Shown one piece after another: positions 30,946 through 51,123 of a stretch of DNA of 64,000 nt. The first letter of the stretch is position 1, and the number at the start of each line of letters is the position of its first letter. The position numbers were made by a program, and so were the translations under genes. Source of the stretch: a virus; the IMG/VR virus record IMGVR_UViG_3300028920_000049; one strand, written 5' to 3'. The notes under the pieces are model-generated. The model saw only the letters and a program-made list of their open reading frames with translations, had not been told where the DNA came from and made no database searches.

Positions 30946-31064
30946 AGGTGAGAATTAGCGACTAGAGAAGAAAATACCGCCCTTTGCGGCCATGTCAGCT
31001 TGTCCCTTTCGGGTGCTATCATAAGGAGTTGAACCTTGAAGTATCTCTAACCTTCACTTGACCT
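30946..31064 (-). ncRNA. Y RNA-like (YrlA-type) copy 1
   Basis: AGGU...ACCU ends, motif GUGAAGGUUAGAGAUACUUC, T-arm AAGG-UUCAACU-CCUU, and two further hairpins. Confidence 0.75.
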
Positions 31065-31067
31065 TGT

Positions 31068-31206
31068 GAGCAGTAGAGGGATTGGCTCTTACTGCTCTGT
31101 CGAGGTTACCAAGCGTTCACTTGGCGGGCTACTGCTTCCGGCTGGGTCACCCTGATACCTTCTCGGTACCACCTCTAGGACATACCAGTTGATCACACCG
31201 ATATGT
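31068..31206 (-). ncRNA. unidentified structured RNA (multi-stem domain flanked by hairpins)
   Basis: GAGGU/ACCUC closes several short hairpins, including GUACC-GAGA-(A)GGUAU; hairpin GAGCAGUA/UACUGCUC. Confidence 0.5.
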
Positions 31207-31210
31207 CTTG

Positions 31211-31254
31211 TGGAGTCGATGGGGCTTGAACCCATTGCAAATCCCGTAGACTCC
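31211..31254 (-). ncRNA. 44-nt tRNA-like minihelix (acceptor stem and T-arm only)
   Basis: GGAGUC/GACUCC-A acceptor stem, T-arm AUGGG-UUCAAGC-CCCAU, 12-nt linker. Confidence 0.6.
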
Positions 31255-31265
31255 TGATATTATCT

Positions 31266-31339
31266 TGGTGGAGGATAGGGGAGTCAAACCCCTAATTCAG
31301 CCGTGCAAAGGCTGCGTGATCTCATTTCACCAATCCCCC
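31266..31339 (-). tRNA. tRNA-Ala(UGC)
   Basis: Loop UUUGCAC, G3-U70 pair, CCA encoded. Confidence 0.92.
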
Positions 31340-31350
31340 AGGAGTTGTTA

Positions 31351-31845
31351 ATGATTACAAGACAATGTAAACAGTGTCAAGAAGAATTTCAGCCAGATCC
31401 TCGAGAAGTTAAGCGAGGGAATGGTTATTTCTGTTCCTTGTCCTGTTCTGCTAAGTTCAATAGCCTGAAGCGTTCAGCTAAGCTAAATAAACCCAATGTC
31501 TCTTGTGCCTATTGTCAGAAGAGATTCTATAAGAGCCCTAGTAAGCAAAAGAAGTCCAAGTCAGGCTTGTTCTTTTGCTGCCGAGCTCATAAAGATCTAG
31601 CTAATCGTCTGGATGGAATTAAGGCGATCCATCCTCCGCATTTTGGTCAGGACAACTCTAGGCATTATCGCACTCTGGCTCTACGTAAATTGCCCAACCG
31701 ATGTAACCGATGTCCTTATGATAAGTTCGTTGAGGCTTTAGTTGTACATCATAAAGACCATGATAGGAGCAACAATAAGTTATCTAACTTAGAGGTCCTT
31801 TGCCCTACTTGTCATTGGGAGCATCATCTAGGCTTAACAAATTGA
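31351..31845 (+). CDS. HNH homing endonuclease (the only well-supported plus-strand gene)
   Basis: Tandem CxxC...CSxxC zinc motifs and VVHHKDHDRSNNKLSNLEVLCPTCHWEHH. Start at 31351 after AGGAG. Confidence 0.88.
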   Translation: MITRQCKQCQEEFQPDPREVKRGNGYFCSLSCSAKFNSLKRSAKLNKPNVSCAYCQKRFYKSPSKQKKSKSGLFFCCRAHKDLANRLDGIKAIHPPHFGQDNSRHYRTLALRKLPNRCNRCPYDKFVEALVVHHKDHDRSNNKLSNLEVLCPTCHWEHHLGLTN

Positions 31846-31856
31846 GCTACGACCCC
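31840..31856 (-). pseudogene. tRNA 5' remnant
   Basis: GGGGUCGUAGCUCAAUU; first 14 nt identical to the tRNA-Lys(UUU) 5' end. Contains the HNH stop on the other strand. Confidence 0.6.
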
Positions 31857-31880
31857 AGAAGTCAGATGATCTAACTATTC

Positions 31881-32093
31881 TTATTTTCTGTCAAGGATTT
31901 TACGCGCTTCTACTATTCTTTCGTTGAGAGTTCTAAGTCTAGCATTCCTTTCAGCTAGTGTCTTGAGTAGAAACGTAATGTCTTGTTGATACTTAGCCTC
32001 CCAGAAGGTGGCGGTCAGGGTCTCCGTTCTGCCAGCCTTGATCTCTGTCAGGGTTTGCAACACGTCATTGATTATTTCTTCATAGCTGGCCAT
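31881..32093 (-). CDS. hypothetical protein
   Basis: 70 aa with an AGGAG RBS. Confidence 0.55.
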   Translation of the reverse strand: MASYEEIINDVLQTLTEIKAGRTETLTATFWEAKYQQDITFLLKTLAERNARLRTLNERIVEARKILDRK

Positions 32094-32101
32094 GCTGTCT
32101 C

Positions 32102-32383
32102 CTAGTAATAGGTATGTGAGTTGATGCTCACGCGAGTGCTCTTGATTGCCTTCTTGATCAGTCTCTCGAGCTCTTTCTCCATGTTTTTGGCAAAGGTCTC
32201 CTTAATTCTCTTCTGTAAAGCTGGTCTTAGCTCTCTCATGAGTTTCTTGACTTCCTTGTCGACGACCTCGGCCATATTCTGGCTTAGTCTTTGCTTGAAG
32301 TTATTATTATACTGCTCTCTGATGAACTTGCGCTCATCAACAGACATCTTCTGCATGATCTCTTCGAATAGATCTCTTGGCAT
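32102..32383 (-). CDS. hypothetical coiled-coil protein
   Basis: 93 aa with an AGGAG RBS. Confidence 0.55.
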   Translation of the reverse strand: MPRDLFEEIMQKMSVDERKFIREQYNNNFKQRLSQNMAEVVDKEVKKLMRELRPALQKRIKETFAKNMEKELERLIKKAIKSTRVSINSHTYY

Positions 32384-32403
32384 TTCTCTCTCTCTCCTGT
32401 TTG

Positions 32404-32474
32404 TTGGGGCACTAGGATTCGAACCTAGAATAAGTGGGTCAGAGCCACCCAGTTTACCATTAGCTTATGCCCCA
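32404..32474 (-). tRNA. tRNA-Gln(CUG)
   Basis: Loop CUCUGAC; U1-A72. Confidence 0.92.
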
Positions 32475-32488
32475 ATGTGATGTTTTCT

Positions 32489-32743
32489 CTAGTAGTCACT
32501 CCAGCCAATGTATGACTTGTCGATATACTCTCTTGCCATCTCTGGTAACTTCTTGTCCAGTAGCTCCTTGACTTGCTTCTGAACCTCTGTGTCGATCTTA
32601 TTTTTGTTCTCTTTAATATAGCGCTTGACAGCTTTGTGAGCCAGTTTTCTGGCTTCCTCTTTCACGAAGTTGTCCAGGTTCTCTTGGACTGCGCGATCGA
32701 ATGCTCTTTCTTGAGCCTTGGTAAACTCGTTTTTGACTGTCAT
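32489..32743 (-). CDS. hypothetical coiled-coil protein
   Basis: 84 aa with an AGGAG RBS. Confidence 0.55.
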   Translation of the reverse strand: MTVKNEFTKAQERAFDRAVQENLDNFVKEEARKLAHKAVKRYIKENKNKIDTEVQKQVKELLDKKLPEMAREYIDKSYIGWSDY

Positions 32744-32753
32744 TTTAATCTCC

Positions 32754-32828
32754 TGGTTGAGGGGGAGAGGATCGAACTCTCGACATCTAGGGCCAAAACC
32801 TAGCGCTCTACCGCTGAACTACCCCTCA
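32754..32828 (-). tRNA. tRNA-Gln(UUG)
   Basis: Loop UUUUGGC, U1-A72, CCA encoded. Confidence 0.93.
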
Positions 32829-32833
32829 AGAGT

Positions 32834-33079
32834 TTAGTTATTTTCTACCTTCGCGTATTTCTTGATTAATTGTGCACATCTAGTCTCGTCAATTGAAGCT
32901 GTTCCCTGACCGAGTTTCAGCGCACAGATATGGTTCTCTACATCAATAAAATAGATTGCGTTAAATTGTATATTAACGTAGATAATTCCCGGATTATCGT
33001 CTTTAAGGATGGCGTTTTCAGAACACCCCCATAGCATTATTGCTATGAATACGAGAGCCGAGAAGAGTCTCTTTCTCAT
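32834..33079 (-). CDS. putative lipoprotein
   Basis: Basic N-terminus, hydrophobic core and lipobox LWGC. Confidence 0.6.
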   Translation of the reverse strand: MRKRLFSALVFIAIMLWGCSENAILKDDNPGIIYVNIQFNAIYFIDVENHICALKLGQGTASIDETRCAQLIKKYAKVENN

Positions 33080-33089
33080 CTTTATCTCC

Positions 33090-33166
33090 TGGTGGGGTCG
33101 GAGGGATTCGAACCCTCGACCGCCTGGTTAAAAGCCAGATGCTCTACGCTACTGAGCTACGACCCC
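33090..33166 (-). tRNA. tRNA-Lys(UUU)
   Basis: Loop CUUUUAA; CCA encoded. Confidence 0.95.
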
Positions 33167-33394
33167 ATTCTTGCCTGATACTTCGTCTTGCATCTCTTTC
33201 ATAATACTGGGTGAGATATGCACGCTGTCAAGCACAATACATTGCTTCATAGAGTGGCATATGTCACACTCTGCTACTTCTTCTGATTCCCTGATAGGCA
33301 GGGGGAAGCGCATGGCGCATGATTTGCAGTATTTCATGGTTCGTTTGCTGGTCACTTCAGCCTCTTGCTGTCTGTCTGTCTTTCCGAATCCCAC
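33149..33394 (-). CDS. small zinc-binding protein
   Basis: CKSC...CDIC; stop inside tRNA-Lys; start uncertain. Confidence 0.5.
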   Translation of the reverse strand: MGFGKTDRQQEAEVTSKRTMKYCKSCAMRFPLPIRESEEVAECDICHSMKQCIVLDSVHISPSIMKEMQDEVSGKNGVVAQ

Positions 33395-34158
33395 TTAAAG
33401 CTAGTTCCACGCAGTTCTCCTGAGTGACTATCCTGAATTCCATCTGAACTTCCAGCGGTCCCAGTGTAGAAGCCTGTTGATGCAACTGCCCCACCGCCTG
33501 TGTTAGAGGCGTTAACCAGATGATCATAGTACTGCTGGGATGCGACGTCCTTAGTTATTGTCATTTGTCTGAGGCCAGCAGCATCAGCAGTCCACCGTAT
33601 AGTGTTCCCTGCATTGATATTGGTGGCATCCTGAACTTCGGCTAGGTCCTGGTTCGCTCCTTCATAGACGAATGTCCACCGCCCGGTGGCCTGCATCTCC
33701 CGCACCATAGCTGAGATATGGGATGCTCCAAAGTTCTTTGAGTTATTTTCAACTCCGTCACTCATGATGAACATGAGTACTGAGGTGTTTTTGTCATTGA
33801 TATCAGGCTGCTGTTGCAGTCTTTGAATTACATACCCAACGGCATCATACATTGCTGTCATACCAAAGGGCTCATAATCTTCCAGTGGAATCGGATCGAT
33901 CTCTTGCAGCGGGCGACACCAGAGTTCTGGTTGGTCTACCTTGCTGGAGAATGTGACCAGAGATACCTCCGTTTTGATATGGTCTTGGCCTTCAAGGCCG
34001 CTCTTCGTCTGCTCAACCTGGTGGTTGATACAATCTAGTGCTTCTTCTCTGATGCTTTTCATGCTAGTAGAGCGATCCAGCAGGAACACTACATAGTGCT
34101 TCATCTGGACTGGCCCTTCATTTACTTCATCAATTACTTGCTCGAGTCTGTCTGTCAT
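33352..34158 (-). CDS. von Willebrand factor A domain protein
   Basis: MIDAS motif FLLDRSTSM, GMTAMYDAVG and FIMSDGVEN. Confidence 0.85.
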   Translation of the reverse strand: MTDRLEQVIDEVNEGPVQMKHYVVFLLDRSTSMKSIREEALDCINHQVEQTKSGLEGQDHIKTEVSLVTFSSKVDQPELWCRPLQEIDPIPLEDYEPFGMTAMYDAVGYVIQRLQQQPDINDKNTSVLMFIMSDGVENNSKNFGASHISAMVREMQATGRWTFVYEGANQDLAEVQDATNINAGNTIRWTADAAGLRQMTITKDVASQQYYDHLVNASNTGGGAVASTGFYTGTAGSSDGIQDSHSGELRGTSFKWDSERQTDSKRLK

Positions 34159-34496
34159 TATGCCCTTCCATAATCATCAGAGAAGCGTTCGATATCGTCT
34201 TCTCCGAAGTAGGTCCCCGTCTGTACCTCGATAAAGATCAGGGGCTCTTCTCCTGTGTTGTGCATTCTATGTATAACTCCCACCGGAACGTGGAAGTAGC
34301 TGTTTGGTGTTACGTCTTCCTCATACCTGCCTAGAGTAATGATTCCTGTGCCCTGAATGATGACCCAGAACTCGCGTCTCATTTGGTGGCTTTGCAGGCT
34401 GAGCTTTTGCCCTGGATTTACACAGATCCTTTTGACCTTGTGTGTCTCATTGTCAGATAGGACTTCGTACCAGCCCCAGGGTCTGTGCTCTTGCAT
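34158..34496 (-). CDS. cupin, mannose-6-phosphate isomerase type II C-terminal-like
   Basis: RPWGWYEVL, LSLQSHQMRREFWV, HRMHN and IEVQTGTYFGEDDIERFSDDYGR. Start MQEH at 34496. Confidence 0.88.
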   Translation of the reverse strand: MQEHRPWGWYEVLSDNETHKVKRICVNPGQKLSLQSHQMRREFWVIIQGTGIITLGRYEEDVTPNSYFHVPVGVIHRMHNTGEEPLIFIEVQTGTYFGEDDIERFSDDYGRA

Positions 34497-34517
34497 GATT
34501 AGTCCTTTATTAGTTTG

Positions 34518-34560
34518 TGTGGATGGCGAGATTCGAACTCCCACGCCCTCACGGACACTA
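34518..34560 (-). pseudogene. 3' half of a class II (Leu/Ser-type) tRNA
   Basis: Variable arm UGUCCGUGAGGGCG, T-arm GGGAG-UUCGAAU-CUCGC, acceptor 3' strand CAUCCAC-A. No matching 5' half next to it. Confidence 0.6.
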
Positions 34561-34788: not shown

Positions 34789-34799
34789 CTTCCGCTCCG

Positions 34800-34886
34800 T
34801 GGTGGGCGAGACAGGATTCGAACCTGCACATCCGAAGATACACGGGCCTAAACCGTGCGCGTATTCCTGAGTTCCGCCACTCGCCC
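34800..34886 (-). tRNA. tRNA-Leu(UAG)
   Basis: Loop UUUAGGC, long variable arm, CCA encoded. Confidence 0.93.
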
Positions 34887-38129: not shown

Positions 38130-38310
38130 CGAGAATTAACTCGCCACACCATAGTGGAACCTTTCTTTGAAGGCCTAAGTCATCCGTTTCGTGGAGCACG
38201 GTGAACTTCCGTCTTTAAGCGATCTACCTCGATATTCGCGCGGGGCCGGGCAGGGCAACCTAGGCTTGTACGCTTCCCCACTTGCACCCTCGAGGTTTGT
38301 TCACTTCTCG
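38130..38310 (-). ncRNA. unidentified structured RNA of about 181 nt (6S-like or divergent Y-like)
   Basis: CGAGAA/UUCUCG closing stem, nested helices AGUGG..AA/UUCCACU and GCCUAGGU/ACUUAGGC; no ORF between tRNA-Val and tRNA-Tyr. Confidence 0.5.
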
Positions 38311-39208: not shown

Positions 39209-39556
39209 TTACTCCGAAAGGATGTTGGCGAATCTTCTGAGGGATGCATCAGTTGCGCTGTTTTTGTTTAGCTTTCTCTTTGGTCTCTTGATTGTCTTCT
39301 TGCCTGTGTTATCGACGTATCCCTTAGCTAGCTTCTTATTGATGATAGACCTGGCATATCCCGAAGCCAGAGACTGGCTATAGAAGGTCTTTCTAACACC
39401 AGCCCTGGGCTTCTTTGTACCGATGGCCCCATGACTAGTTTCTACGTGCCACTTGTGCGTCTTCCCCTCTTCGAGATAGCACTTGACCTCGTAGAACTTG
39501 TTATGAGTGCCAGTGGTGCACTCAAGATAGTATTTATCCGTGAGTGTCTTTGCCAT
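39209..39556 (-). CDS. WGR domain protein
   Basis: YLECTTGTHNKFYEV...VETSHGAIGT...KLAKGY. Confidence 0.7.
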   Translation of the reverse strand: MAKTLTDKYYLECTTGTHNKFYEVKCYLEEGKTHKWHVETSHGAIGTKKPRAGVRKTFYSQSLASGYARSIINKKLAKGYVDNTGKKTIKRPKRKLNKNSATDASLRRFANILSE

Positions 39557-39565: not shown

Positions 39566-41338
39566 TTAGAAGTTCTCCCTGATGTACTCGATAGTGAAGA
39601 CTTGCTTCTCTTCGGTCTCACCAGTTTCCTTGTTCACGACGACCTCAGTCCTCAGTCCTTCGAACTCGAGGATGGTGTCGAGCAACTTCTCTGAATAGCC
39701 GGCTACCAAGTTGGTCTTGGTGTCCTTCTGCTCAGTCAGGGCACGGCCATAACCAGCGAGGTCCAGACAGTGAAGGAAACACTTCTTGTTTTTCTCCTTC
39801 CTGTAGTCCCTGATTAGCTCCTTGACTGACCTTCTGTCGCGACTTCTGCTGCCCCAGTAGTAGTCAGAGTGGCTACCATAGGTCTGCATGTCAGAGATGA
39901 TGATCATGCGGTCAAATGTGATGTTGTTTTGTTTGAGCGCCCACTTGAGTGCCTCTTCTGCGTTGGTGCTGTGACCAACTCGGAGCGTAGCAACCTCGTC
40001 AGCGATGTCAAACACGTTACCACTAGCCCGTGGGTTGATCTGAGCTGGTTTCCATGTATCACCGAACGCACCGATTACGGAGTTAGGCTCGCTCTTCTTG
40101 GCAATGATGGTACCCAGAATGCAGGCAGCCTTATTCATGCTCATCTGAGAGTTGCTGCTGATCGGGTTGCCCATGCTACCAGAGTTGTCAACTGCGATGA
40201 GACTGGTGCCTGGAATGTCATCCAGAGCATCGATCACCTTCTCAACGGCCTCGCCCAGAGCGTCGTACAGCTTCTTCTCCTGACCGGTGAGGTTTGGAGC
40301 CTGAGGAGCGTAGTACCTGTTCACGCTGAGCTGACCGGTGATTGCGTCCCTGGCTGCCAGGAACCTGTGGGGGAGCTGCTTGCTCTTCACAGCACCGTTG
40401 ATCAGCTTGTCGCACACCATCTGGATGTACTTGGCATCCACGCCAGCCTGCAGGATATTCCTGAGGTTACGCAGCATAGCCATGTACGGAAGCTGGTTGC
40501 TCTCAATGAGATGTTCCCAGATATCCTTGGTGTTACCGAACTGAGAGAGCAGAACCTCCCAGCCAGCGCCACTCTTCTTGGCAAACTGCTGAGCTCGAGG
40601 CCCGAATTCCTTCATCTTGCTGAGGTTTTTCCTTGCAGCGATGACTGGAGTAGCCTTTGGATCTGTGACCTCACCTGTCTTCAGGTAGTGGTCTAGTGCC
40701 TTCGGAAGCGGGTAGTTTGTACTTCTGTCGATCATCTTGAGGACGTCTGAGAAGTATGGGCGGTGCTGACCCTCATACTTCAGGAAGTCCCGCTCCTTGA
40801 ACTTGCTGAACGCATCAGCGAGACCACGCTTCAGGCTGTTTGGAAGAGCAGTCTGAGTGCCGTACAGAGACCTGGAGGCCACGAACACCTGTTTCAGCTC
40901 GTCTGCCCTCTGAATGACCTTCGGACAGTAGGTGCGTACGTACTGCTTGGTCTCCGCACACTGTGCAGCGACTGCAACCAGCACCTGAGGTGTGGTCCTG
41001 AGCTTCATCTCCTTGCGTGCCCAGTGGGCAATCGCTAGGAGGTCACGAGGACTCTCGGACTCAGCGATCTCGTGCGCAGTGTTGATGATCAGCTGTGCAT
41101 GCTCATCAAAGTCCGACTCGTCGTAGTTGTACCCACGATCCATCGCCTGAGGATCGGTTGGGTAGTACTTCGGCTCGTTGAACATTGATGACCCTAGGAT
41201 GGCGATCATGCGCTCAGAGGGATCCTGAATCTCATGGACCTGGGTTCCCACGGCACTGGTTGCCATGACCTCGCGAATGCTGGTCTTTCCGTCCTTGACC
41301 TTGCGCTTGAGATTGGTCTTAACCTTGCTCTTCTTCAT
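39566..41338 (-). CDS. Ro60/Rsr-like TROVE domain RNA-binding protein with a vWA domain
   Basis: AHWARKEMKLRTTP, IQRADEL, LPYMAMLRNLRN, SKQLPHRFLAA, MIDAS IAVDNSGSM, IIISDMQ and LVAGYSEK. Confidence 0.92.
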   Translation of the reverse strand: MKKSKVKTNLKRKVKDGKTSIREVMATSAVGTQVHEIQDPSERMIAILGSSMFNEPKYYPTDPQAMDRGYNYDESDFDEHAQLIINTAHEIAESESPRDLLAIAHWARKEMKLRTTPQVLVAVAAQCAETKQYVRTYCPKVIQRADELKQVFVASRSLYGTQTALPNSLKRGLADAFSKFKERDFLKYEGQHRPYFSDVLKMIDRSTNYPLPKALDHYLKTGEVTDPKATPVIAARKNLSKMKEFGPRAQQFAKKSGAGWEVLLSQFGNTKDIWEHLIESNQLPYMAMLRNLRNILQAGVDAKYIQMVCDKLINGAVKSKQLPHRFLAARDAITGQLSVNRYYAPQAPNLTGQEKKLYDALGEAVEKVIDALDDIPGTSLIAVDNSGSMGNPISSNSQMSMNKAACILGTIIAKKSEPNSVIGAFGDTWKPAQINPRASGNVFDIADEVATLRVGHSTNAEEALKWALKQNNITFDRMIIISDMQTYGSHSDYYWGSRSRDRRSVKELIRDYRKEKNKKCFLHCLDLAGYGRALTEQKDTKTNLVAGYSEKLLDTILEFEGLRTEVVVNKETGETEEKQVFTIEYIRENF

Positions 41339-41370: not shown

Positions 41371-42171
41371 TTACTTGGTCTCAAAACCGAGTGCGACCAA
41401 GCTATCGAAATCCAACGTGTATTTCTCTTCGTCCCTGAGATGCATGCTCACTAGGCTCAGACTCTCTGCCTCAGCCTTGAGTACCTTGATATGCCCACCA
41501 ATCAGAACAAGCTTCTTCTGGGCATCAGTCACTTTGCGACGCAGAGTATTCAGCCTTGCTGCTGCCTTGTCTACCTGTGTTGGGAGCCCAGTGGTTCCAT
41601 TGGTTGCACGTGCCCTCTGCTGGCGTTCTGGGTACTCCTGGCCTTCTGCCATATCGGCTGCGCAGGGCTGGATTGCCAGGTTACCGTCTTGCATCCCGGC
41701 GTAGGCGCCTGGAAGACATCCCGAGACTCCCGAGGATGCTCTCACAACACTTTTTGACTGATCCAGCTCTTTTGCGAGCTCATCGATCTCTTTGAAACGC
41801 TCCTGGAACTTATCGAAGCCGTCTTCGAAGACCACAGCCTTTTCACCGACTAGCTTATCGGTTTCCTTGTTGAAATCGAACTCAGTGTCGGCCCACGCCT
41901 TAAACACTTCGTCCAGCTGCCTCTGGTAGGGGCGTGCTGCGGCTACCTTGTCGTTGCTACGCTCCTGGTAGAACTCACGAAGAGCCATGAGTTCCTTCTC
42001 TTTGTCGTTTACGAACGCAGAGACGTCTTTGGTCGCTCCCTCGAGTCTCTGAACTTCGCCAGAGATCTCGTCAACTCTGCGAGCGACTGCCTCTTTGATT
42101 TCTTTCCCTGTCTTGGCAAAGAGGAAGCCAACGACAGTATCACCTAGCAGGCGAGGCTGAAACTGATTCAT
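41371..42171 (-). CDS. coiled-coil hypothetical protein between Y RNA copy 2 and Ro60
   Basis: Start MNQF at 42171 after AAGGA (track extension is Y RNA sequence). Confidence 0.65.
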   Translation of the reverse strand: MNQFQPRLLGDTVVGFLFAKTGKEIKEAVARRVDEISGEVQRLEGATKDVSAFVNDKEKELMALREFYQERSNDKVAAARPYQRQLDEVFKAWADTEFDFNKETDKLVGEKAVVFEDGFDKFQERFKEIDELAKELDQSKSVVRASSGVSGCLPGAYAGMQDGNLAIQPCAADMAEGQEYPERQQRARATNGTTGLPTQVDKAAARLNTLRRKVTDAQKKLVLIGGHIKVLKAEAESLSLVSMHLRDEEKYTLDFDSLVALGFETK

Positions 42172-42194: not shown

Positions 42195-42310
42195 GGGCCG
42201 AGGAAAGTCGAATAGAGTGGATTACTGTGGGACTTGAACCCACGACAGTCATTTCACAATAATGATGCCCTACCAACTGGGCGAAGTAACTCGATTCTTC
42301 ACTACGGCCC
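42195..42310 (-). ncRNA. Y RNA (YrlA-type) copy 2 with a full tRNA-like domain
   Basis: GGGCCG/CGGCCC stem, GUGAAGAAUCGAGUUACUUC, D-arm GCCC-AGUUGGUA-GGGC, anticodon-like arm, T-arm GUGGG-UUCAAGU-CCCAC. Lies about 0.9 kb upstream of Ro60. Confidence 0.85.
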
Positions 42311-43921: not shown

Positions 43922-43995
43922 CAGGGCCGACGAGATTTGAACTCGCGATCTCTGGCGTGACAGGCCAGCGCTTTAACACACTAAGCTACGACCCT
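43922..43995 (-). tRNA. tRNA-Asp(GUC)
   Basis: Loop CUGUCAC; G73. Confidence 0.93.
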
Positions 43996-44482
43996 ATTTG
44001 CCTAATAGAACCAATAGAGGATCTATATGGCACTTCTGAAGCCCAATGTCAAACTCGGTTTTCACCAGTTTGTCCATATGAGGCTCCATGTCTGTATCAT
44101 CGTCAATAATGGCGAATCTGTCAATATCGCTTCTCTCAGAAAGCCATTTATCGATCTCTTGACCTCTTTTTGACCATCTGCCGGTATAGTCGCCATTTTC
44201 GTCAAATAGCCGAAACGCTCGAGGCGTTCTAGCGATGATTGGAGTCCTTACACCTTGAGAAGCGATGTACTTCTTTGTGCTTTCAAAGCGTTCTTCAGTG
44301 CCATTTCGCCAGCTAGAGGAAAGCACTAAGAATGCGCCGGTCTCGTTACAGATGTAATTTAGTAAATGGACGCAATTTGGATCAAATTCGTAATGATGCT
44401 CTCCGTCCCAAGGGATCATTGGCCGTTCAATTGTTTTCCTATTGTTGAGAACGCCATCTATATCGAGAAAGATGATTTTCAT
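43994..44482 (-). CDS. HAD-superfamily phosphatase (Swiss Army Knife RNA-repair type, HAD_SAK_2-like)
   Basis: MKIIFLDIDGVLN, VLSSSWR, RGQEIDKWL and AIIDDDTD. Confidence 0.85.
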   Translation of the reverse strand: MKIIFLDIDGVLNNRKTIERPMIPWDGEHHYEFDPNCVHLLNYICNETGAFLVLSSSWRNGTEERFESTKKYIASQGVRTPIIARTPRAFRLFDENGDYTGRWSKRGQEIDKWLSERSDIDRFAIIDDDTDMEPHMDKLVKTEFDIGLQKCHIDPLLVLLGK

Positions 44483-46690: not shown

Positions 46691-47569
46691 TTACTTCTTT
46701 GCTTTCTTGACTTTGTACATGAGTTCATCAGCACTTGCAAGCATTGATAGCAGGTTGGGTAGCTTTCCAGCTTCGTAGCAAGATGCTCCGATACTCACAG
46801 ACAGTCTAACGTCACATTCAGGGATACGCTTGCCCTTGATTGCGTTGTTAATTCTTTCCTTCAGCTTTTCAGCCTGGATTACGTCGGTATTTGGCAAGAA
46901 CACAGCAAATTCATCACCGCCCATACGTCCAACAATATCTGCATCTCGTGTAGTGTCGAGCAAAGCAGATGCTACCTTCAGTAGTGCAATGTCTCCGTAT
47001 TCATGACCATACTCGTCATTGATCGGCTTTAGGTCGTCTACATCAACAAAGAGGACTGCGGCTGGCTGATCAAAGCGCTTAGATACCTTGAGCTGCTGCT
47101 GGCCTAGTGTGATGAATCCTCTTCTGTTGAACACCTGAGTGAGCTCGTCAGTGAACAGCTCATTCCTGACATCATCCAGTCTCTTCTGGCGTTCAATGCT
47201 GAATAGAATTGCAGAGATGAGTGCGTGAGAGGTGAGTCCTTCCTTCACTAGGAAGTCATGCGCACCAATCTGCACAGCTCTGTATCCTAGATGGAAGTCA
47301 TCTTTTTCATCTGTCATGACAATGACAGGAGTAGCCATTACCTCACCATTGAGCTTAGTGAGGGCTTCTAGGTTGGCAAAACCAGGTAGGCTAAGATCTA
47401 GGAGAATTGAGTGATAGCTCTTATTTGTGAGGTTCTCTTGAGCTTCCTCAACAGAAGATACCGTGTCGATTCGAAAGGTATACCTGTGGTCATCGAGAAG
47501 CATGTTCTCAATAACTGTTGACTCATCTTGATCATCATTAATGATCAATACTTTTGGTCTCCAGAGCAT
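46691..47569 (-). CDS. response regulator-diguanylate cyclase (REC-GGDEF)
   Basis: LIINDD, ILLDLSLP (acceptor Asp), DELTQVFNRR, DVDDLKPINDEYGH, RDAD I-site and intact GGDEF. Confidence 0.93.
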   Translation of the reverse strand: MLWRPKVLIINDDQDESTVIENMLLDDHRYTFRIDTVSSVEEAQENLTNKSYHSILLDLSLPGFANLEALTKLNGEVMATPVIVMTDEKDDFHLGYRAVQIGAHDFLVKEGLTSHALISAILFSIERQKRLDDVRNELFTDELTQVFNRRGFITLGQQQLKVSKRFDQPAAVLFVDVDDLKPINDEYGHEYGDIALLKVASALLDTTRDADIVGRMGGDEFAVFLPNTDVIQAEKLKERINNAIKGKRIPECDVRLSVSIGASCYEAGKLPNLLSMLASADELMYKVKKAKK

Positions 47570-47642
47570 CTCGACTCCTCTGTCGTTTAGACAATTCTAT
47601 CATGCACTTTTGATGTTTTGAATGTAGGAGAGTGTAGGTTTA

Positions 47643-49343
47643 TTACAGGGTAGTGTCAATGATTAGGTCGTCGGTATATCCCTGGTAGGCTGTCTCGTGG
47701 GGATAGCCATAAGGATTACAGATTAGCTCAGTGTCACCTAGAGTCAGGTGTCTGAAATCATGTGTATGACCGAAGAACCAGAAGTCTGGCTGGTGCCAGA
47801 TTATCGCGTCAAAGTTAGATGAGAAAAACACGTTACAAGTGTTGTGCCGCCATCTTGGATGGGCACACTCTTGGACAGGAAGGTGGTGTGTAACCACGAT
47901 ATCTCCCCGCTGGACGTTGTTTTTCAGAAACTCTTCGGTTTTTGCGTGTTCGGCGATTATTGCATCCCTTTTACCCTCAATTAGTCTCTGATCTGGCCAT
48001 TTATCTCCTAGCTGCATAGCTATAATGCTATTAGGATACCAGCCAGTGGCACCTATGAACCTTTGTCCATCAATGACTGTGGAGCTCTTTTCTAGGAAGT
48101 GCAGATTGTCTATCTTACTGCTGAGGTTGTTGAGAGATTCGTGTCTTCTCTCTATGCTAGAGTGCCAGCAATTGCCTGTAAAAAAGGCCTTTCCGTTTCT
48201 GCGTACTGCGAAGTTTGAATATGGAACATTTAAGCACCAGACAGTTCCGTTGTATTGGGTCTTCTTAAGGCCACGGGCCAGATTCTCAACTTGTGTGTTC
48301 TCTTTGTTGAAGGCCAGGTTTAAGCGAAAGGCTCCTGGTCTATATTCAACTAGGCTGCTGCGAATGCCACTTTGGACAGCTAAGCTTTGTACCCATTCTA
48401 GGAATTCCTTTGTTCCGTTTAGTGCACCGGCTTGTCTTCCTGGGGCCCAGGATCCATCCCCATTCATAGCTTCTCGAATGAAGATCCTAAACTGTCTAGC
48501 CGATAAGTGCCTAAACATGTTTTTGTTTGGGGTCTTATCTGAAAAGATCCATCTGCGTAGTAGGCCTGAGCTTTCTGATTTAATATAGAATTGTCCCTGT
48601 GATAAACAGGACTTTATTTTCTTTCCAGCAATCTCTTTTATCTCTCTATCTCTAGACGTGAAAGTGTATTTATAGCCTAGATTACTCAGTACATTTTTAA
48701 TTCTTTGTATACCTTCTGGTTTTGATTGATAGATGCTAAAGAGGTGGTTTTGACATCCTCCGTCAGTAAGAATCCATGCGAGTAGCCTAATTTCGTCATC
48801 TTCTATAAAGTCTAATTCTCTGTTTTCTACCTTTCTCGCGCATGGAAGATTGATCCGAGTATTAGGAATATCTTGTGAAGTGCCATATCTAAGGTCTGAA
48901 AATTCTCCGTTGGCCTTTCTAAGATAGAAGGGGATTCTATGTCCTTTTGTAATTCCAAAACTTACTGCTTGATTTTCGTAGCAGTAAATGTCATTGGCTT
49001 CTTTAATGATAACTTTGTTGATTGGAACCCATGCGGCAGTCTCTTCTGGAGTAATAGACAGAACCATATCCATGGGTTGGATTTCGTTATACTTTATCCA
49101 ACCACGGAGAGTTAACAGCTCGGTTTCAGTATCCAAACAGTCATGATTTCCTAGCACAAAAATTACGTGCTCGAACCGATCACAAAATTTTCTGAGAGCT
49201 TTCTTTAGTCTCTTCTTGTAGCCAACAGCTAGATCGCCGGCTATGACAAGCACATCAACGCCTTCGTTGGGAAGCCTGTCTGGGACCATGGAATTGGGGT
49301 GACCGAATTCAACGTGAATGTCACTGATTAGCTTGATCTTCAT
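47643..49343 (-). CDS. calcineurin-like metallophosphoesterase, intein-containing (about 243 aa after splicing)
   Basis: SDIH, IAGD, GNHD, VVTHH and FGHTH. Confidence 0.9.
   Translation of the reverse strand: MKIKLISDIHVEFGHPNSMVPDRLPNEGVDVLVIAGDLAVGYKKRLKKALRKFCDRFEHVIFVLGNHDCLDTETELLTLRGWIKYNEIQPMDMVLSITPEETAAWVPINKVIIKEANDIYCYENQAVSFGITKGHRIPFYLRKANGEFSDLRYGTSQDIPNTRINLPCARKVENRELDFIEDDEIRLLAWILTDGGCQNHLFSIYQSKPEGIQRIKNVLSNLGYKYTFTSRDREIKEIAGKKIKSCLSQGQFYIKSESSGLLRRWIFSDKTPNKNMFRHLSARQFRIFIREAMNGDGSWAPGRQAGALNGTKEFLEWVQSLAVQSGIRSSLVEYRPGAFRLNLAFNKENTQVENLARGLKKTQYNGTVWCLNVPYSNFAVRRNGKAFFTGNCWHSSIERRHESLNNLSSKIDNLHFLEKSSTVIDGQRFIGATGWYPNSIIAMQLGDKWPDQRLIEGKRDAIIAEHAKTEEFLKNNVQRGDIVVTHHLPVQECAHPRWRHNTCNVFFSSNFDAIIWHQPDFWFFGHTHDFRHLTLGDTELICNPYGYPHETAYQGYTDDLIIDTTL
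48171..49139 (-). mobile_element. intein (323 aa) with LAGLIDADG endonuclease
   Basis: Begins CLDTETELLTLRGW right after GNHD and ends RRNGKAFFTGN before a +1 Cys. Blocks LAWILTDG and AMNGDG. Confidence 0.9.
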
Positions 49344-49357
49344 TCTATGCCTGCGTG

Positions 49358-49428
49358 TGCTGGTAGAAAGAATCGAACTTTCCCCAGACGCTTATGAGGC
49401 GTCTTGGCCCAACCTGAGCCCTACCAGC
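49358..49428 (-). tRNA. tRNA with CAU anticodon (Met or Ile2)
   Basis: Loop CUCAUAA; short variable region. Confidence 0.8.
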
Positions 49429-49429
49429 T

Positions 49430-49510
49430 TGGAGGCGGTGCCACGAGTTGAACGTGTTGCGCTGAGTTTATGAGACTCAGTGAGCTCGCCCGGCTCTTAT
49501 GCACACCGCA
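49430..49510 (-). tRNA. atypical initiator-like tRNA(CAU)
   Basis: U1/C72 mismatch, GAGC/GCUC D-stem, 5-nt insertion before the D-stem, loop CUCAUAA, CCA encoded. Confidence 0.65.
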
Positions 49511-49516
49511 GCAAAT

Positions 49517-49649
49517 AGGACGAGGATTATCGATAAGAGTCAGTTTGTTATCGTCCTCCATAAGTTGCGGAGGACCTTGGATTTGCACCAAGTCAAAAAC
49601 ATTAAATTGTTTTATCGTCTTGAAGTAACTCTTGCCTTCACTTCGTCCT
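49517..49649 (-). ncRNA. Y RNA-like copy 3
   Basis: AGGACG/CGUCCU stem, GUGAAGGCAAGAGUUACUUC, T-arm CUUGG-UGCAAAU-CCAAG, extra GUCCUCC/GGAGGAC hairpin. Confidence 0.78.
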
Positions 49650-49752
49650 TGTTTCCTACCTAGATGACTCCAGGTAGGAATGTAGATCAGCCTAACTAGA
49701 CGAGAATGGTCGTTACTTCCATTCTCTTTAATCCCATCGGTCACTGACATGA

Positions 49753-49878
49753 CCTAGCTTAAGTTCCTCTCAGTCCTAGGTGTGGAGGTTCGTATAAGCA
49801 GGAACTAATCAAACTGTCAGCCACACGGTTTTTCTCAATGCCTGTCAGAGCCTGATTCTAACCTTTAAGTCTGGCATT
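49753..49878 (-). ncRNA. unidentified structured RNA with a possible kissing-loop interaction
   Basis: Hairpins AAUGCC/GGCAUU, GUGUGG/CCACAC and CCUAG/CUAGG; loop segments AGUUCCU and AGGAACU are complementary. Confidence 0.45.
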
Positions 49879-49910
49879 GCACGGAATCCCTAGTGAGTCG
49901 TGCTGTTTTT

Positions 49911-50019
49911 GGCTGGGAAAGGTCGGAAAGAGTAACGAACTGGGCCCACCCTCACACCTGAATCGAACAGGCAGTCTTTGTTTGCAATAAAAGAAGTAAC
50001 TCTAACCTTCACCACAGCC
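49911..50019 (-). ncRNA. Y RNA-like copy 4
   Basis: GGCUG/CAGCC stem, GUGAAGGUUAGAGUUACUUC, anticodon-like loop containing UUGCAAA, T-arm CCUG-UUCGAUU-CAGG. Confidence 0.8.
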
Positions 50020-50023
50020 TTTT

Positions 50024-50093
50024 GATAATCTAAGAGTCCTAAGCCGATAAATAAGCTGGCCAGCTTGGGTCAGCCCGGTATCCTTAGATCATC
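50024..50093 (-). ncRNA. unidentified 70-nt branched RNA
   Basis: 11-bp closing stem GAUGAUCUAAG/CUUAGAUUAUC with inner GGG/CCC and AAGCUG/CAGCUU hairpins. Confidence 0.45.
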
Positions 50094-50097
50094 TTTT

Positions 50098-50196
50098 GAG
50101 CGAGTATAGACGGTAAGAGAAACGCCCTTTGAGTCGAGCAGACTTGGTAGCAGATTAAAATATCAGCTTGAAGTATCTCTCGCCTTCACTACGCTC
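50098..50196 (-). ncRNA. Y RNA-like copy 5 (degenerate T-arm)
   Basis: GAGCG/CGCUC stem, GUGAAGGCGAGAGAUACUUC. Confidence 0.72.
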
Positions 50197-50200
50197 TTTT

Positions 50201-50274
50201 GTTGTTGGTCGATAGGTTGCCACTTAAGAGAACTGCAGGGGCCTATCTGTTACATGTTCCCTTACACCAACAAC
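50201..50274 (-). ncRNA. unidentified 74-nt stem-loop RNA
   Basis: 9-bp closing stem GUUGUUGGU/ACCAACAAC and inner GAUAGG/CCUAUC stem. Confidence 0.45.
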
Positions 50275-50275
50275 T

Positions 50276-50351
50276 TGGGGTGACTGACGGGTATTGAACC
50301 CGCGACCTTCTGGGCCACAACCAGATGCTCTACCGCTGAGCTACAGCCACC
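50276..50351 (-). tRNA. tRNA-His(GUG)
   Basis: Encoded G-1 opposite C73, loop UUGUGGC, CCA encoded. Confidence 0.95.
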
Positions 50352-50355
50352 AAAA

Positions 50356-50424
50356 ATTCGGGAGAAGGGGCGTTAAGAGTGTTTTCTTATTCGCCGAAGT
50401 ATCTCTCAACTTCACTTCCCGAAT
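50356..50424 (-). ncRNA. minimal Y RNA-like copy 6 (Ro-binding stem only)
   Basis: AUUCGGGA/UCCCGAAU stem, GUGAAGUUGAGAGAUACUUC, no T-arm; 69 nt. Confidence 0.7.
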
Positions 50425-50429
50425 ACTTA

Positions 50430-50458
50430 TTTATGTATGTTCTTTAGTCCTTTGTCAA
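50430..50458 (-). promoter_or_regulatory. sigma70-like promoter for the Y RNA/tRNA-His cluster
   Basis: TTGACA-17 nt-CATAAA ending 6 nt before copy 6. Confidence 0.5.
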
Positions 50459-50460
50459 GG

Positions 50461-50649
50461 CTAAAGTAGGAGTATCATTACCCAAACTAACATGCCGCCG
50501 GCGACTACAATACCCAGAACATCCTTACCTGGCGTAATATGTTCTATTCTAGGGTAGTCATTCTGACTTAGCCTAAATAGGTCATGAATCATGGAAAGTA
50601 CATAAATGAATGCCATGAAAGCTAAGTAAACTGTCATTGCTGCTGTCAT
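50461..50649 (-). CDS. small membrane protein
   Basis: Two hydrophobic segments; AAGGAG RBS. Confidence 0.6.
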   Translation of the reverse strand: MTAAMTVYLAFMAFIYVLSMIHDLFRLSQNDYPRIEHITPGKDVLGIVVAGGMLVWVMILLL

Positions 50650-50662
50650 CTTATCTCCTTTT

Positions 50663-50859
50663 CCTTACTCAAGGTCACCCCTATACCAACTTAGCTAATG
50701 AGGGTAGGGAGGCTGGGGGCTCACCCCAGAATAGCTGAGTATTCTGTCTATAAAACAGCCCTCATCACTATCATCCCCGGAGTAAGGTCTCATTCCCCCT
50801 CGAGCTCGCTGCAGCTAGCCGGATCTTCGATCCTAGGCGACGATGCGGGAGCTCGAGGG
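50663..50859 (-). ncRNA. unidentified multi-domain structured RNA (possible cis-regulatory leader)
   Basis: CCUUACUC/GAGUAAGG, AUGAGGG/CCCUCAU, GGCUG/CAGCC and an 11-bp CCCUCGAGCUC/GAGCUCGAGGG helix. Confidence 0.5.
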
Positions 50860-50863
50860 AAGA

Positions 50864-50892
50864 GACGAAAAACCGCGTACAGGTTTTTCGTC
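50864..50892. terminator. perfect 11-bp hairpin, possible terminator
   Basis: gacgaaaaacc-gcgtaca-ggtttttcgtc. Confidence 0.45.
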
Positions 50893-50994
50893 AGGAATGT
50901 TAAAGTTGCTTCTTTTCTTAGTAATCGTTTCGTTTCAATGGTTTTGTCAAAATGTTAAGAAGCATTTCCTTAACTTGGCGGAACCGCCTAAGGA

Positions 50995-51123
50995 GACGAG
51001 AATAGTCAGAAAGAGATTACGTTTACTTGTCACCTTGACATCCCCCTCATGGGGGGGGGATCTGGGAATCGAACCCAGCTAAGCTCATTAGTATTGAGAA
51101 GTATCTCTTGCTTTCACTGCGTC
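50995..51123 (-). ncRNA. Y RNA-like copy 7
   Basis: GACG/CGUC stem, GUGAAAGCAAGAGAUACUUC, T-arm CUGGG-UUCGAUU-CCCAG, extra AUCCCCC/GGGGGAU hairpin. Confidence 0.78.

What the first reader, a model, noticed from the sequence alone, without database searches (positions are those of the whole stretch)
30946..51123. Phage Ro60 with seven modular Y-RNA-like genes
Seen: seven non-coding minus-strand elements (30946-31064, 42195-42310, 49517-49649, 49911-50019, 50098-50196, 50356-50424, 50995-51123). All share the exactly spaced 20-nt motif GUGAARNNNNGAGWUACUUC just inside a terminal stem, and each terminal stem has a different but compensating sequence. The module inside the stem differs between copies: full D/anticodon/T cloverleaf (copy 2), anticodon-like arm plus T-arm (3, 4), T-arm plus unrelated hairpins (1, 7), degenerate (5), or absent (6). 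A TROVE/Ro60 gene lies at 39566-41338. Known: bacterial YrlA RNAs join a Ro-binding stem to a tRNA-mimic domain and can tether Ro60 to effectors such as PNPase, and loci usually carry only one or a few. Inference: this phage has expanded the family into a set of interchangeable adaptors or decoys for a single Ro60 protein.
Basis: partly seen in the sequence, partly recalled or inferred. Interest (0 to 1): 0.9.

Follow-up and report, generated by a model that had tools for sequence, protein, structure and literature searches.

The report
Seven Ro60-partner Y RNAs in phage
A probable large phage from marine sediment carries one Ro60 gene and seven small RNA genes that share the Ro60-docking stem of bacterial Y RNAs but carry different tRNA-like or plain inserts; such multi-copy sets prove common in Ro60-encoding phages, so this is a rich variant of a known system, not a new kind.

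Summary
The 20-nt motif occurs seven times (0 expected), always on the Ro60/tRNA strand. A covariance model built almost entirely from other viral contigs recovers those seven elements and nothing else. Each has a two-strand "handle": a variable terminal stem, an NNA bulge, a conserved GUGAA/UYCYC helix with a constant U mismatch, a 5-nt bulge, a covarying 9-bp helix and an invariant UACUUC.

The handle matches the Ro60-binding and anticodon-stem part of YrlA, including UA at nt 23-24. It sits beside Ro60 in many phages.

No window copy is a textbook YrlA, and Rfam's YrlA model scores none of them. W2 is a full cloverleaf with the handle on its acceptor end. W7 and W3 lack a D arm. W6 has no insert.

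Sets of 3-6 copies are common (six each in CcrColossus and L001), so the expansion is not special to this phage. This scan has noted similar handle-plus-module sets before on other DNA.

Ro60 binding, expression and the adaptor or decoy roles are inferred, not shown. My verdict is a new variant of a known kind, of moderate interest.

The parts
30946..31064 (-). W1: Y-like RNA. Handle, then a 4-bp T-arm-like hairpin (loop UUCAACU) directly after UACUUC, then a branched hairpin and a GC hairpin. It ends 3 nt before tRNA-Arg (30867-30942).
   Evidence: Exact motif. R1 34.7 bits, E 1.2e-7. Module fold. The same layout occurs in L001f, L004a, L087c and L088c.
42195..42310 (-). W2: handle enclosing a complete canonical-order cloverleaf (D arm, anticodon arm with UGU, T arm). 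The acceptor 5' strand is handle nt m12-m18, and tRNA U8 is handle nt m19. It ends 857 nt upstream of the Ro60 start.
   Evidence: R1 38.7 bits. Rfam tRNA 48.7 bits over model positions 1-71, with an A1-C72 mismatch. ARAGORN calls Thr-tgt. The orthologue L001c carries anticodon UUG. It does not overlap a CDS, because the next gene starts at the ATG at 42171.
49517..49649 (-). W3: handle, then a V-like hairpin, a T-arm variant (loop UGCAAAU) and an 8-bp hairpin in the acceptor-stem-loop position. No D arm.
   Evidence: R1 27.5 bits, E 1.8e-5. Module fold.
49911..50019 (-). W4: handle, then a hairpin, a T arm (loop UUCGAUU) and a short GGG/CCC hairpin.
   Evidence: R1 43.6 bits. The module is orthologous to L004b (score 0.33 against 0.01 for the next best).
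50098..50196 (-). W5: handle plus two hairpins. No T arm.
   Evidence: R1 38.0 bits. Contigs of a relative about 91% identical, found in four metatranscriptome libraries, cover it. The handle shows 1 change in 51 nt and the module 7 in 48.
50356..50424 (-). W6: minimal element, a handle closed by a 15-nt loop. It ends 5 nt before tRNA-His (50276-50350).
   Evidence: R1 60.8 bits, but it was in the model's seed. Module-less counterparts exist in L001e, L005b-d, L084a and L088b.
50995..51123 (-). W7: handle with GUGAAA, then a V region, a T arm (loop UUCGAUU) and a 7-bp acceptor-like hairpin. A 4-bp/3-nt mini-hairpin stands where YrlA has its D arm.
   Evidence: R1 27.7 bits. Module fold. The unique m6 A is compensated by U in the 3' strand (pair 15-127: GC 6, AU 1).
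39566..41338 (-). Ro60 orthologue (590 aa), the only TROVE gene in the window.
   Evidence: Pfam TROVE 1.8e-29 and vWA_Ro60 2e-11. PDB matches: Thermus phage phiLo Ro60 (9KOP/9L5Y) at 2.1e-13 and D. radiodurans Rsr (2NVO) at 3.9e-5. A single tblastn hit in the window.
39209..39556 (-). WGR-domain protein (115 aa) directly after Ro60. This neighbour is conserved and is a possible Ro60 partner.
   Evidence: Pfam WGR 5.9e-6. The same position holds a WGR gene in L001, L005, L084, L087, L088 and the JGI contig. Complex prediction gives weak support only (0.53, best control 0.00).
43994..44482 (-). Context: HAD_SAK_2 phosphatase of the kind found in RNA-repair proteins.
   Evidence: Pfam 2.8e-29. 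Also near Ro60 in L087 and the JGI contig.
57271..58656 (-). Context: CCA-adding enzyme / tRNA nucleotidyltransferase.
   Evidence: Pfam PolyA_pol 2.9e-26, HD and tRNA_NucTran2_2.

Best explanation
The seven elements are genes for Y RNAs, the small RNA partners of the Ro60 protein encoded at 39566-41338. They belong to the lineage that includes bacterial and phage YrlA.

Shown by sequence: each RNA has the same two-strand handle.
- a terminal stem of any sequence
- a 3-nt NNA bulge
- a conserved 5-bp helix GUGAA/UYCYC with a constant U mismatch
- a 5-nt bulge on the 3' side
- a 9-bp helix
- the invariant UACUUC

Inferred by homology: the bulged GUGAAG region is the Ro60 docking site. It corresponds to GNCGAA(N)G of YrlA and GGUCCGA of frog Y RNA. 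The 9-bp helix plus UA corresponds to the kinked anticodon-like stem of YrlA.

The insert beyond UACUUC differs by copy:
- a complete unpermuted tRNA joined through its acceptor end (W2, the Yrn1-like orientation)
- permuted V-T-acceptor-loop bodies with a reduced or missing D arm (W7, W3)
- T-arm-plus-hairpin bodies (W1, W4)
- hairpins only (W5)
- nothing (W6, YrlB-like)

Inferred mechanism: the RNAs are made from the tRNA-island transcripts and trimmed by tRNA-processing enzymes. All compete for one Ro60 ring. Module-bearing copies tether Ro60 to different tRNA-binding or RNA-decay/repair partners, and the minimal copies only gate the ring.
For: The motif occurs 7 times against 0 expected.

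Covariation of the terminal stem and the 9-bp helix was tested in 27 elements from 20 loci. 88.4% of cells pair against 61.7% in shuffles, and the score is 0.577 against 0.150 (0/500 shuffles; slid registers at most 0.141). 8 of 9 pairs are compensatory in each helix, and the U2 position is never paired in 27 of 27. The seven window copies alone show the same pattern.

Model R1 recovers exactly the seven copies.

Homology to YrlA rests on four points. Gordonia phage Neville has GCGAAG-N8/9-UUACUUC directly before its Ro60, and CcrColossus has the same motif plus a textbook V-T-AS-D body. R1 hits both phages. Rfam YrlA (RF02553) hits the handle-bearing L005a (44.4 bits, E 1.2e-6) and L001a (32.2 bits). 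WUAC falls at nt 22-25 and UA at nt 23-24, as in Salmonella YrlA (PMC4201824; 10.1101/312249).

Link to Ro60: 23 of 74 viral loci found by the motif alone hold a Ro60. All 24 exact motifs there are on the same strand, at a median of 398 nt and all within 4 kb. By comparison, 311 of 50,697 phage records match this Ro60.

The handle recurs next to Ro60 in relatives with 46-61% identical Ro60 and 32-50% GC.

Module types are conserved between phages.

In a relative about 91% identical, the handle has 1 change in 51 nt and the module 7 in 48 (p = 0.028). Those contigs come from four metatranscriptome libraries.
Against: There is no binding or expression evidence for this phage. The RNA-library contigs are from a relative, may include DNA, and run past the 3' end of W5.

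Rfam's YrlA model gives no hit on any of the seven, even at E <= 10.

The motif has U where the published Ro-contact motif has a conserved C.

Only W2 meets the published 'within 4 kb of Ro60' rule. The other six lie 8.2-9.8 kb away.

Alignment A1 was chosen with a pairing filter, which inflates the percentage paired (though not the variety of pair types). A2 is fitted to the model.

No virion gene lies in the window, so 'phage' rests on gene content and on relatives in viral contig collections.
Confidence: 0.8

Rival explanations
1. The handle is a processing or punctuation structure of the tRNA island. It could be a landing site for an RNase, or for another conserved neighbour such as the WGR protein. 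Under this view its closeness to Ro60 reflects shared residence in the tRNA/RNA-repair island, not binding.
For: Six of the seven copies lie more than 8 kb from Ro60, among tRNA genes. W1 and W6 abut tRNA-Arg and tRNA-His, with gaps of 3 and 5 nt. No promoter or terminator signal above chance accompanies the elements. The WGR gene is as conserved next to Ro60 as the RNAs are.
Against: In loci found by the motif alone, the element sits at a median of 398 nt from Ro60 on the same strand. This includes contigs where few or no tRNAs are nearby. The handle is homologous to the part of YrlA that binds Rsr in Salmonella and M. smegmatis (PMC4201824).
Confidence: 0.08
2. Only some copies are working Y RNAs. 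The others (W5, W6, perhaps W3) are decaying duplicates that keep a recognisable stem by recent descent.
For: W5 and W6 have no tRNA-like feature, and W3 has a non-canonical T loop. W3 and W7 score lowest with R1.
Against: Terminal stems differ in every copy yet still pair, which points to long-maintained structure. Module-less copies recur in L001, L005, L084 and L088 and score highest with the model. The W5 handle is conserved while its module drifts. Salmonella YrlB is a precedent for a working Y RNA without a tRNA-like part (PMC4201824).
Confidence: 0.15
3. W2 (and L001c) is primarily a tRNA precursor. RNase P and a 3' nuclease would release a decoding tRNA-Thr(UGU), and the paired leader and trailer (the handle) would mark the precursor for Ro60 quality control.
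For: Full-length Rfam tRNA match (48.7 bits) with U8, a D arm with GG, and a T loop UUCAAGU. The window encodes a CCA-adding enzyme. M. smegmatis YrlA is cut by RNase P and receives CCA (PMC4201824).
Against: There is an A1-C72 mismatch and the score is low beside the window's other Thr-UGU tRNA (66.1 bits). No CCA is encoded. The orthologue L001c keeps the acceptor and T arms but has a different anticodon (UUG). In both phages that anticodon duplicates a standard tRNA.
Confidence: 0.15

Closest known systems
YrlA (Y RNA-like A; Rfam RF02553) of Salmonella, M. smegmatis and 22 phages (Chen et al. 2014, PMC4201824; Wang et al. 2018, 10.1101/312249)
   Same: Encoded on the Ro60 strand. A 5' motif of the GNCGAA(N)G type precedes a helix that ends in YUAY at nt 22-25, with UA at nt 23-24. 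A T arm often follows. Relatives of this phage carry textbook copies with the same handle (L001a, L005a, L087b, L088d). The Rfam YrlA model hits L005a and L001a.
   Different: The motif is GUGAAG (U in place of the conserved C). Both strands of the handle are conserved, whereas only the 5' strand is recognisable in Salmonella and M. smegmatis. None of the seven has the full T-AS-D core, and none scores with RF02553. Six of the seven lie more than 4 kb from Ro60.
Yrn1 of Deinococcus radiodurans
   Same: As in W2, the tRNA-like part has the normal order (D side, anticodon-like arm, T arm), and the Ro-binding stem extends from the acceptor end (orientation as described in PMC4201824).
   Different: Yrn1 has only a partial D arm, a 6-nt 'anticodon' loop and no V arm. 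W2 is a complete cloverleaf that passes tRNA models. Chen et al. took Yrn1 and YrlA for independent lineages. Here both orientations carry one and the same handle within one locus (L001a and L001c).
YrlB of Salmonella
   Same: A second, shorter Ro60-bound RNA that shares only the Ro motif and has no tRNA-like part. W6 and W5 are like this.
   Different: No sequence relation was tested. W6 keeps the whole YrlA-type handle, including UACUUC.
Yrl1/Yrl2 of Thermus phage phiLo (PMC12135203)
   Same: A phage Ro60 with more than one Y-like RNA next to it. Binding to the phage Ro60 and to host PNPase was shown in vitro. The phiLo Ro60 is the best PDB match of this Ro60.
   Different: phiLo has two RNAs, identified by a CGAA motif. 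R1 finds no upstream hit there and only one weak downstream match (19.6 bits). The phiLo RNAs have no described tRNA-like modules.
Metazoan Y RNAs
   Same: Paired ends form a stem with a bulged, conserved Ro-binding helix. A variable internal module engages other proteins. There are 2-4 paralogues per species.
   Different: Metazoan Y RNAs have no tRNA-like module, use a different motif (GGUCCGA), and are made by Pol III.

Membership tests
YrlA (strict sense, RF02553) | Reaches the Rfam covariance model | tested here: not met
   No YrlA hit on any of the seven at E <= 10. The only window hit (27829-27926, 23.6 bits, E 1.3) spans a tRNA-Lys/tRNA-Thr junction. The positive control works below the gathering score: Neville 44.1 bits, CcrColossus 42.3, L005a 44.4, L001a 32.2.
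YrlA (strict sense, RF02553) | Permuted tRNA-like domain: V loop, T arm, closed acceptor stem-loop, D arm | tested here: not met
   W7 and W3 have V-T-AS but no D arm. W1 and W4 have a T arm plus other hairpins. W2 is unpermuted. W5 and W6 have none of these.
YrlA (strict sense, RF02553) | 5' motif GNCGAA(N0-1)G | tested here: not met
   All seven have RGUGAAR, with U at the C position. GCGAAG and GUGAAG copies co-occur in the same family and even in the same locus (L010, L041, L050).
YrlA (strict sense, RF02553) | Conserved YUAY at about nt 22-25 (UA kink at nt 23-24) | tested here: met
   WUAC is invariant in position. In W2 it falls at nt 22-25. It reads UUAC in 3 copies and AUAC in 4.
YrlA (strict sense, RF02553) | Within 4 kb of Ro60 on the same strand | tested here: inconclusive
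   All seven are on the same strand. Only W2 is within 4 kb (857 nt), and the others are 8.2-9.8 kb away. In other viral loci 24 of 24 motifs meet the rule.
Y RNA (broad: Ro60 partner RNA) | 5' and 3' ends pair into a stem holding a conserved bulged helix, with a variable internal module | tested here: met
   Three-helix handle with covariation. Modules differ.
Y RNA (broad: Ro60 partner RNA) | Co-occurrence with a Ro60/TROVE gene | tested here: met
   Ro60 lies in the window. 23 of 74 motif-found loci hold a Ro60. All close Ro60 relatives with enough flanking DNA carry the handle.
Y RNA (broad: Ro60 partner RNA) | Bound by Ro60 in vivo or in vitro | not testable with these tools
   No RNA-protein prediction or binding data are available.
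Y RNA (broad: Ro60 partner RNA) | Expressed as a discrete small RNA | tested here: inconclusive
   No RNA run holds this phage. Contigs of a relative about 91% identical, found in four metatranscriptome libraries, cover W5, tRNA-His and W6. Contigs cannot show RNA ends, and DNA carry-over is possible.
tRNA (W2 only) | Cloverleaf that passes tRNA models | tested here: met
   Rfam tRNA 48.7 bits over positions 1-71 (gathering score 29). ARAGORN calls Thr-tgt.
tRNA (W2 only) | Free, processed acceptor end that can be charged | not testable with these tools
   The acceptor stem continues into the handle helix. There is an A1-C72 mismatch and no CCA is encoded.
Ro60 / TROVE protein | TROVE HEAT-repeat ring plus a C-terminal vWA domain | tested here: met
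   Pfam TROVE and vWA_Ro60. PDB matches to phiLo Ro60 and D. radiodurans Rsr.

The most novel reading that the evidence does not exclude
One Ro60 docking handle is a portable module. In a whole clade of large phages it is grafted onto tRNA bodies at two different places: the anticodon-stem position (permuted YrlA type) and the acceptor end (unpermuted Yrn1/W2 type). It is also grafted onto non-tRNA hairpins or onto nothing at all. This gives a conserved set of 4-7 paralogues that direct a single phage Ro60 (perhaps with its WGR neighbour) to different tRNA-binding partners. Anticodon-displaying copies might serve as baits for host tRNA-cleaving defence nucleases. If so, YrlA and Yrn1 architectures would be interchangeable states of one family rather than independent inventions.
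Probability: 0.3. Interest if true: 0.75.

Novelty: new variant of a known kind. Interest (0 to 1): 0.55.

Why it matters
The role of the tRNA-like part of bacterial Y RNAs is still unknown, and only one or two RNAs per organism have been studied. This locus and its relatives provide a natural series. The same Ro60 handle carries a full tRNA, partial tRNA bodies, unrelated hairpins, or nothing.

The series is directly usable for binding, pull-down and structural work to find out what the module recruits.

It also shows that both tRNA orientations seen in Yrn1 and YrlA can share one handle. That bears on how Y RNAs evolved.

The two-strand handle model (R1) finds Y RNA candidates that the current Rfam YrlA model misses.

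Tried and rejected
- Rfam at gathering score found no Y family anywhere, including CcrColossus, Neville and phiLo. That negative was therefore uninformative until the permissive scan gave a working control.
- A megablast of the Ro60 region against sequenced phages found no match.
- A protein-pattern scan of viral contigs with Ro60 found nothing.
- No whole genome is held for the window, so genome-wide counts were impossible.
- The DNA of the JGI contig holding the 58%-identical Ro60 could not be fetched.
- The contig with the 89%-identical Ro60 (L083) is too short to include a W2 counterpart.
- The L085 and L086 contigs show no handle within 0.5-1.2 kb upstream of Ro60.
- A continuous-helix register and an alternative register for the NNNN positions were compared by eye. 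The register kept is the one supported by covariation.
- The 181-nt rod-like RNA at 38130-38310, considered as an eighth Ro partner, gets no R1 hit and has no homologue in any fetched locus.
- The spacer blocks between the Y elements have no homologue either.
- The σ70 promoter and terminator scan found nothing above chance.
- Ro60-WGR complex prediction gave weak support only. The score was 0.53 and the best control 0.00. The mark was reached by 51 of 78 solved complexes and 2 of 108 mismatched pairs. At 0.60 or under it was reached by only 5 of those 78 solved complexes, and by all 4 mismatches that passed.
- The supplements of Chen et al. 2014, the Sim et al. 2020 review and Burroughs & Aravind 2016 are not held. 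I could not check whether arrays of phage Y RNAs are already tabulated there.

Full report
**Observation**

The pattern GTGAARNNNNGAGWTACTTC matches seven times, all on the minus strand, with none expected from shuffles. The same strand carries the Ro60 gene at 39566-41338 (Pfam TROVE 1.8e-29, vWA_Ro60 2e-11), 29 tRNA genes and a tmRNA. Each motif lies 3 nt inside a terminal stem whose sequence differs in every copy.

**Anatomy**

Reading both strands showed that the 3' side is conserved too: W'-CUCU-NNN-Y, then G-N4, then UYCYC, then the stem. The resulting model runs from outside to inside as follows.
- a terminal stem of 4-7 bp
- a 5' bulge NNA
- a 5-bp helix G1U2G3A4A5 / UYCYC in which U2 never pairs
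- a 5-nt 3' bulge that usually starts with G
- a 9-bp helix (m6-m14)
- the invariant single-stranded U15-A-C-U-U-C20
- the insert

I tested this on 27 short, insert-free elements from 20 loci, which MAFFT aligned without ambiguity (A1). 88.4% of cells pair against 61.7% in shuffles. The covariation score is 0.577 against 0.150 (0 of 500 shuffles reach it), and slid registers reach at most 0.141. 8 of 9 pairs in the terminal stem and 8 of 9 in the 9-bp helix change on both sides. The U2 column is unpaired in 27 of 27.

One caveat applies. The elements were picked with a pairing filter, which inflates the percentage paired but not the diversity of pair types.

A covariance model built from A1 (R1) and run without filters over the window finds the seven reported elements, within 2 nt of the reported ends, at E 1.6e-15 to 1.8e-5. 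Nothing else scores below E = 1.2. The seven alone give a covariation score of 0.449 against 0.135, with 0 of 500 shuffles reaching it (this alignment is fitted to the model). One example: W7's unique GUGAAA is matched by a unique U in its 3' strand. A chance 3' partner appears in 4.1% of shuffles, against 7 of 7 observed.

**What family it is**

Chen et al. 2014 (PMC4201824) define YrlA by three features. These are a 5' GNCGAA(N)G motif taken to contact Ro60, a conserved YUAY at nt 22-25, and a permuted tRNA-like body (V loop, T arm, closed acceptor stem-loop, D arm). Wang et al. 2018 (10.1101/312249) place a conserved UA kink at nt 23-24 of the anticodon-like stem. In W2 the WUAC of the motif falls at nt 22-25.

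Gordonia phage Neville has GCGAAG-N8/9-UUACUUC directly before its Ro60. CcrColossus has ...UUACUUC followed by a textbook V-T-AS-D body. R1 hits both phages.

Rfam at gathering score reported no Y family in any locus, including these published phages. At a permissive threshold RF02553 (gathering score 69) gives significant sub-threshold hits. Neville scores 44.1 bits and CcrColossus 42.3, 30.5 and 29.9 bits. The handle-bearing L005a scores 44.4 bits (E 1.2e-6) and L001a 32.2 bits. The handle is therefore the Ro-binding and anticodon-stem portion of the YrlA lineage, with U in place of the conserved C.

**Link to Ro60**

The Ro60 here is under 31% identical to any Ro60 in sequenced phages. It has metagenomic relatives at 46-89% identity. 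Wherever enough flanking DNA is available, the handle recurs on the Ro60 strand, mostly directly upstream: L001 has 6 copies, L088 has 4, L005 has 4, L087 has at least 3, L004 has 2 and L084 has at least 1.

A scan of IMG/VR for the 5' motif alone returned 74 loci. 23 of them hold a Ro60 within the stretch fetched (median 7.3 kb). All 24 exact motifs in those loci are on the Ro60 strand, at a median of 398 nt and all within 4 kb. For comparison, 311 of 50,697 phage records match this Ro60 at all. Some motif hits, such as the L007 group, have poor 3' partners and may be something else.

**The seven are not textbook YrlA**

No window copy scores with RF02553, even at E <= 10. The single window hit lies across a tRNA-Lys/tRNA-Thr junction, which is the dimeric-tRNA artefact Chen et al. 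warn about.

The modules are as follows.
- **W2:** a complete cloverleaf in normal order. Rfam tRNA scores 48.7 bits over the full model, and ARAGORN calls Thr-UGU. Its acceptor 5' strand is handle nt m12-m18, and U8 is m19. The Ro-type stem therefore extends from the acceptor end, which is the orientation Chen et al. describe for D. radiodurans Yrn1.
- **W7:** V-T-AS with a mini-hairpin in place of the D arm.
- **W3:** V-T-AS with a variant T loop and no D arm.
- **W1:** a T-arm-like hairpin straight after UACUUC, then two hairpins.
- **W4:** a hairpin, a T arm and a small hairpin.
- **W5:** two hairpins.
- **W6:** a 15-nt loop only.

These types are shared across phages. W2 matches L001c (0.44 against 0.00 for the next best) and W4 matches L004b (0.33 against 0.01). 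The W1 layout recurs in L001f, L004a, L087c and L088c. Minimal copies occur in L001, L005, L084 and L088. Textbook copies occur in L001a, L005a, L087b and L088d.

W2 and L001c keep the acceptor and T arms but have different anticodons (UGU and UUG). Each anticodon duplicates a standard tRNA of its own locus. 8 of 102 collected elements hold an ARAGORN-recognisable tRNA.

**Copy number**

CcrColossus has six handle elements between 2572 and 3773, directly before its TROVE gene. Neville has four 5' motifs. Several IMG/VR loci have 3-5 copies. Seven is the highest count I saw but not an outlier. What distinguishes this window is dispersal over 20 kb of the tRNA island rather than a tandem array.

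**Expression and selection**

The DNA occurs in marine sediment metagenomes from at least three studies, and no RNA run holds it. Four sediment metatranscriptome libraries hold 204-391-nt contigs of a relative about 91% identical. These cover W5, the spacer, tRNA-His and the start of W6. Contigs cannot show RNA ends, DNA carry-over is possible, and the contigs run past the 3' end of W5.

Within W5 the handle has 1 change in 51 nt, in the bulge. The module has 7 changes in 48 nt (Fisher p = 0.028).

No σ70-type promoter or terminator signal above chance accompanies the elements. W1 and W6 end 3 and 5 nt before tRNA-Arg and tRNA-His. This fits co-transcription with the tRNAs followed by processing, but that step is an inference.

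**Context**

- A WGR-domain gene follows Ro60 here and in six relatives. A complex prediction gives weak support only (0.53, best control 0.00).
- The window also encodes a HAD_SAK_2 phosphatase, a CCA-adding enzyme, a nucleotidyltransferase, a peptide deformylase, a ribonucleotide reductase, RecA and a reverse transcriptase.
- No virion gene lies in the window, so 'phage' is inferred from gene content and from the viral contigs that carry the same system.

**Verdict**

The Y-RNA reading is supported at the level of the Ro-binding handle. The YrlA label in the strict sense fails, and the 'expansion in this phage' claim is replaced by 'a conserved multi-paralogue set typical of Ro60 phages'. 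No held paper describes such sets, but key supplements and reviews could not be read. Other agents of this scan have reported comparable handle-plus-module sets on other DNA.

Noticed in passing
window 39209-39556 (-), with L001 11689-12042, L005 3484-3828, L084 3252-3584, L087 2518-2850, L088 8835-9164: A small WGR-domain protein is encoded directly after Ro60 throughout this clade, often with touching or overlapping stop and start codons. The predicted interface with Ro60 has weak support only (0.53, best control 0.00).
   Followed up: partly
window 38130-38310 (-): A rod-like 181-nt non-coding stretch lies between tRNA-Val and tRNA-Tyr. Its ends (CGAGAAGUGAAC / UUAAUUCUCG) recall the handle helix. 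It has no UACUUC, no R1 hit and no homologue in any fetched locus.
   Followed up: partly
window 50425-50465 (-): A near-consensus promoter, TTGACA-N17-CATAAA, ends about 5 nt before the 5' end of W6. It is not reported by the scan tool because the last base is A. It might drive a W6-tRNA-His unit.
   Followed up: no
window 27829-27926 (-): Rfam YrlA gives a weak hit (23.6 bits, E 1.3) across the junction of tRNA-Lys and tRNA-Thr. This is the dimeric-tRNA artefact, not a Y RNA.
   Followed up: yes
window 22593-23657 (-): A reverse transcriptase gene (RVT_1, 8.3e-20) lies next to the tRNA island.
   Followed up: no
window 4886-7873 (-): A class II ribonucleotide reductase is interrupted by a LAGLIDADG domain, probably an intein.
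   Followed up: no
window 46691-47569 (-): A response-regulator/GGDEF diguanylate cyclase lies inside the island. A similar gene sits near Ro60 on the JGI relative contig.
   Followed up: no
L001 7263-7336 (+): ARAGORN calls a tRNA with anticodon CUA (labelled Pyl) in the tRNA island of the 206-kb relative. It is a possible amber suppressor.
   Followed up: no
L080 (CcrColossus) 2572-3773 (+): This published phage has about six handle-bearing elements in a 1.2-kb tandem array before its TROVE gene. One of them is annotated in GenBank as tRNA-Gln.
   Followed up: partly
window 51552-52382 (-): A nucleotidyltransferase (phrog_388, 4.4e-13) lies just upstream of W7. Neville also has a nucleotidyltransferase near its Ro60.
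   Followed up: no
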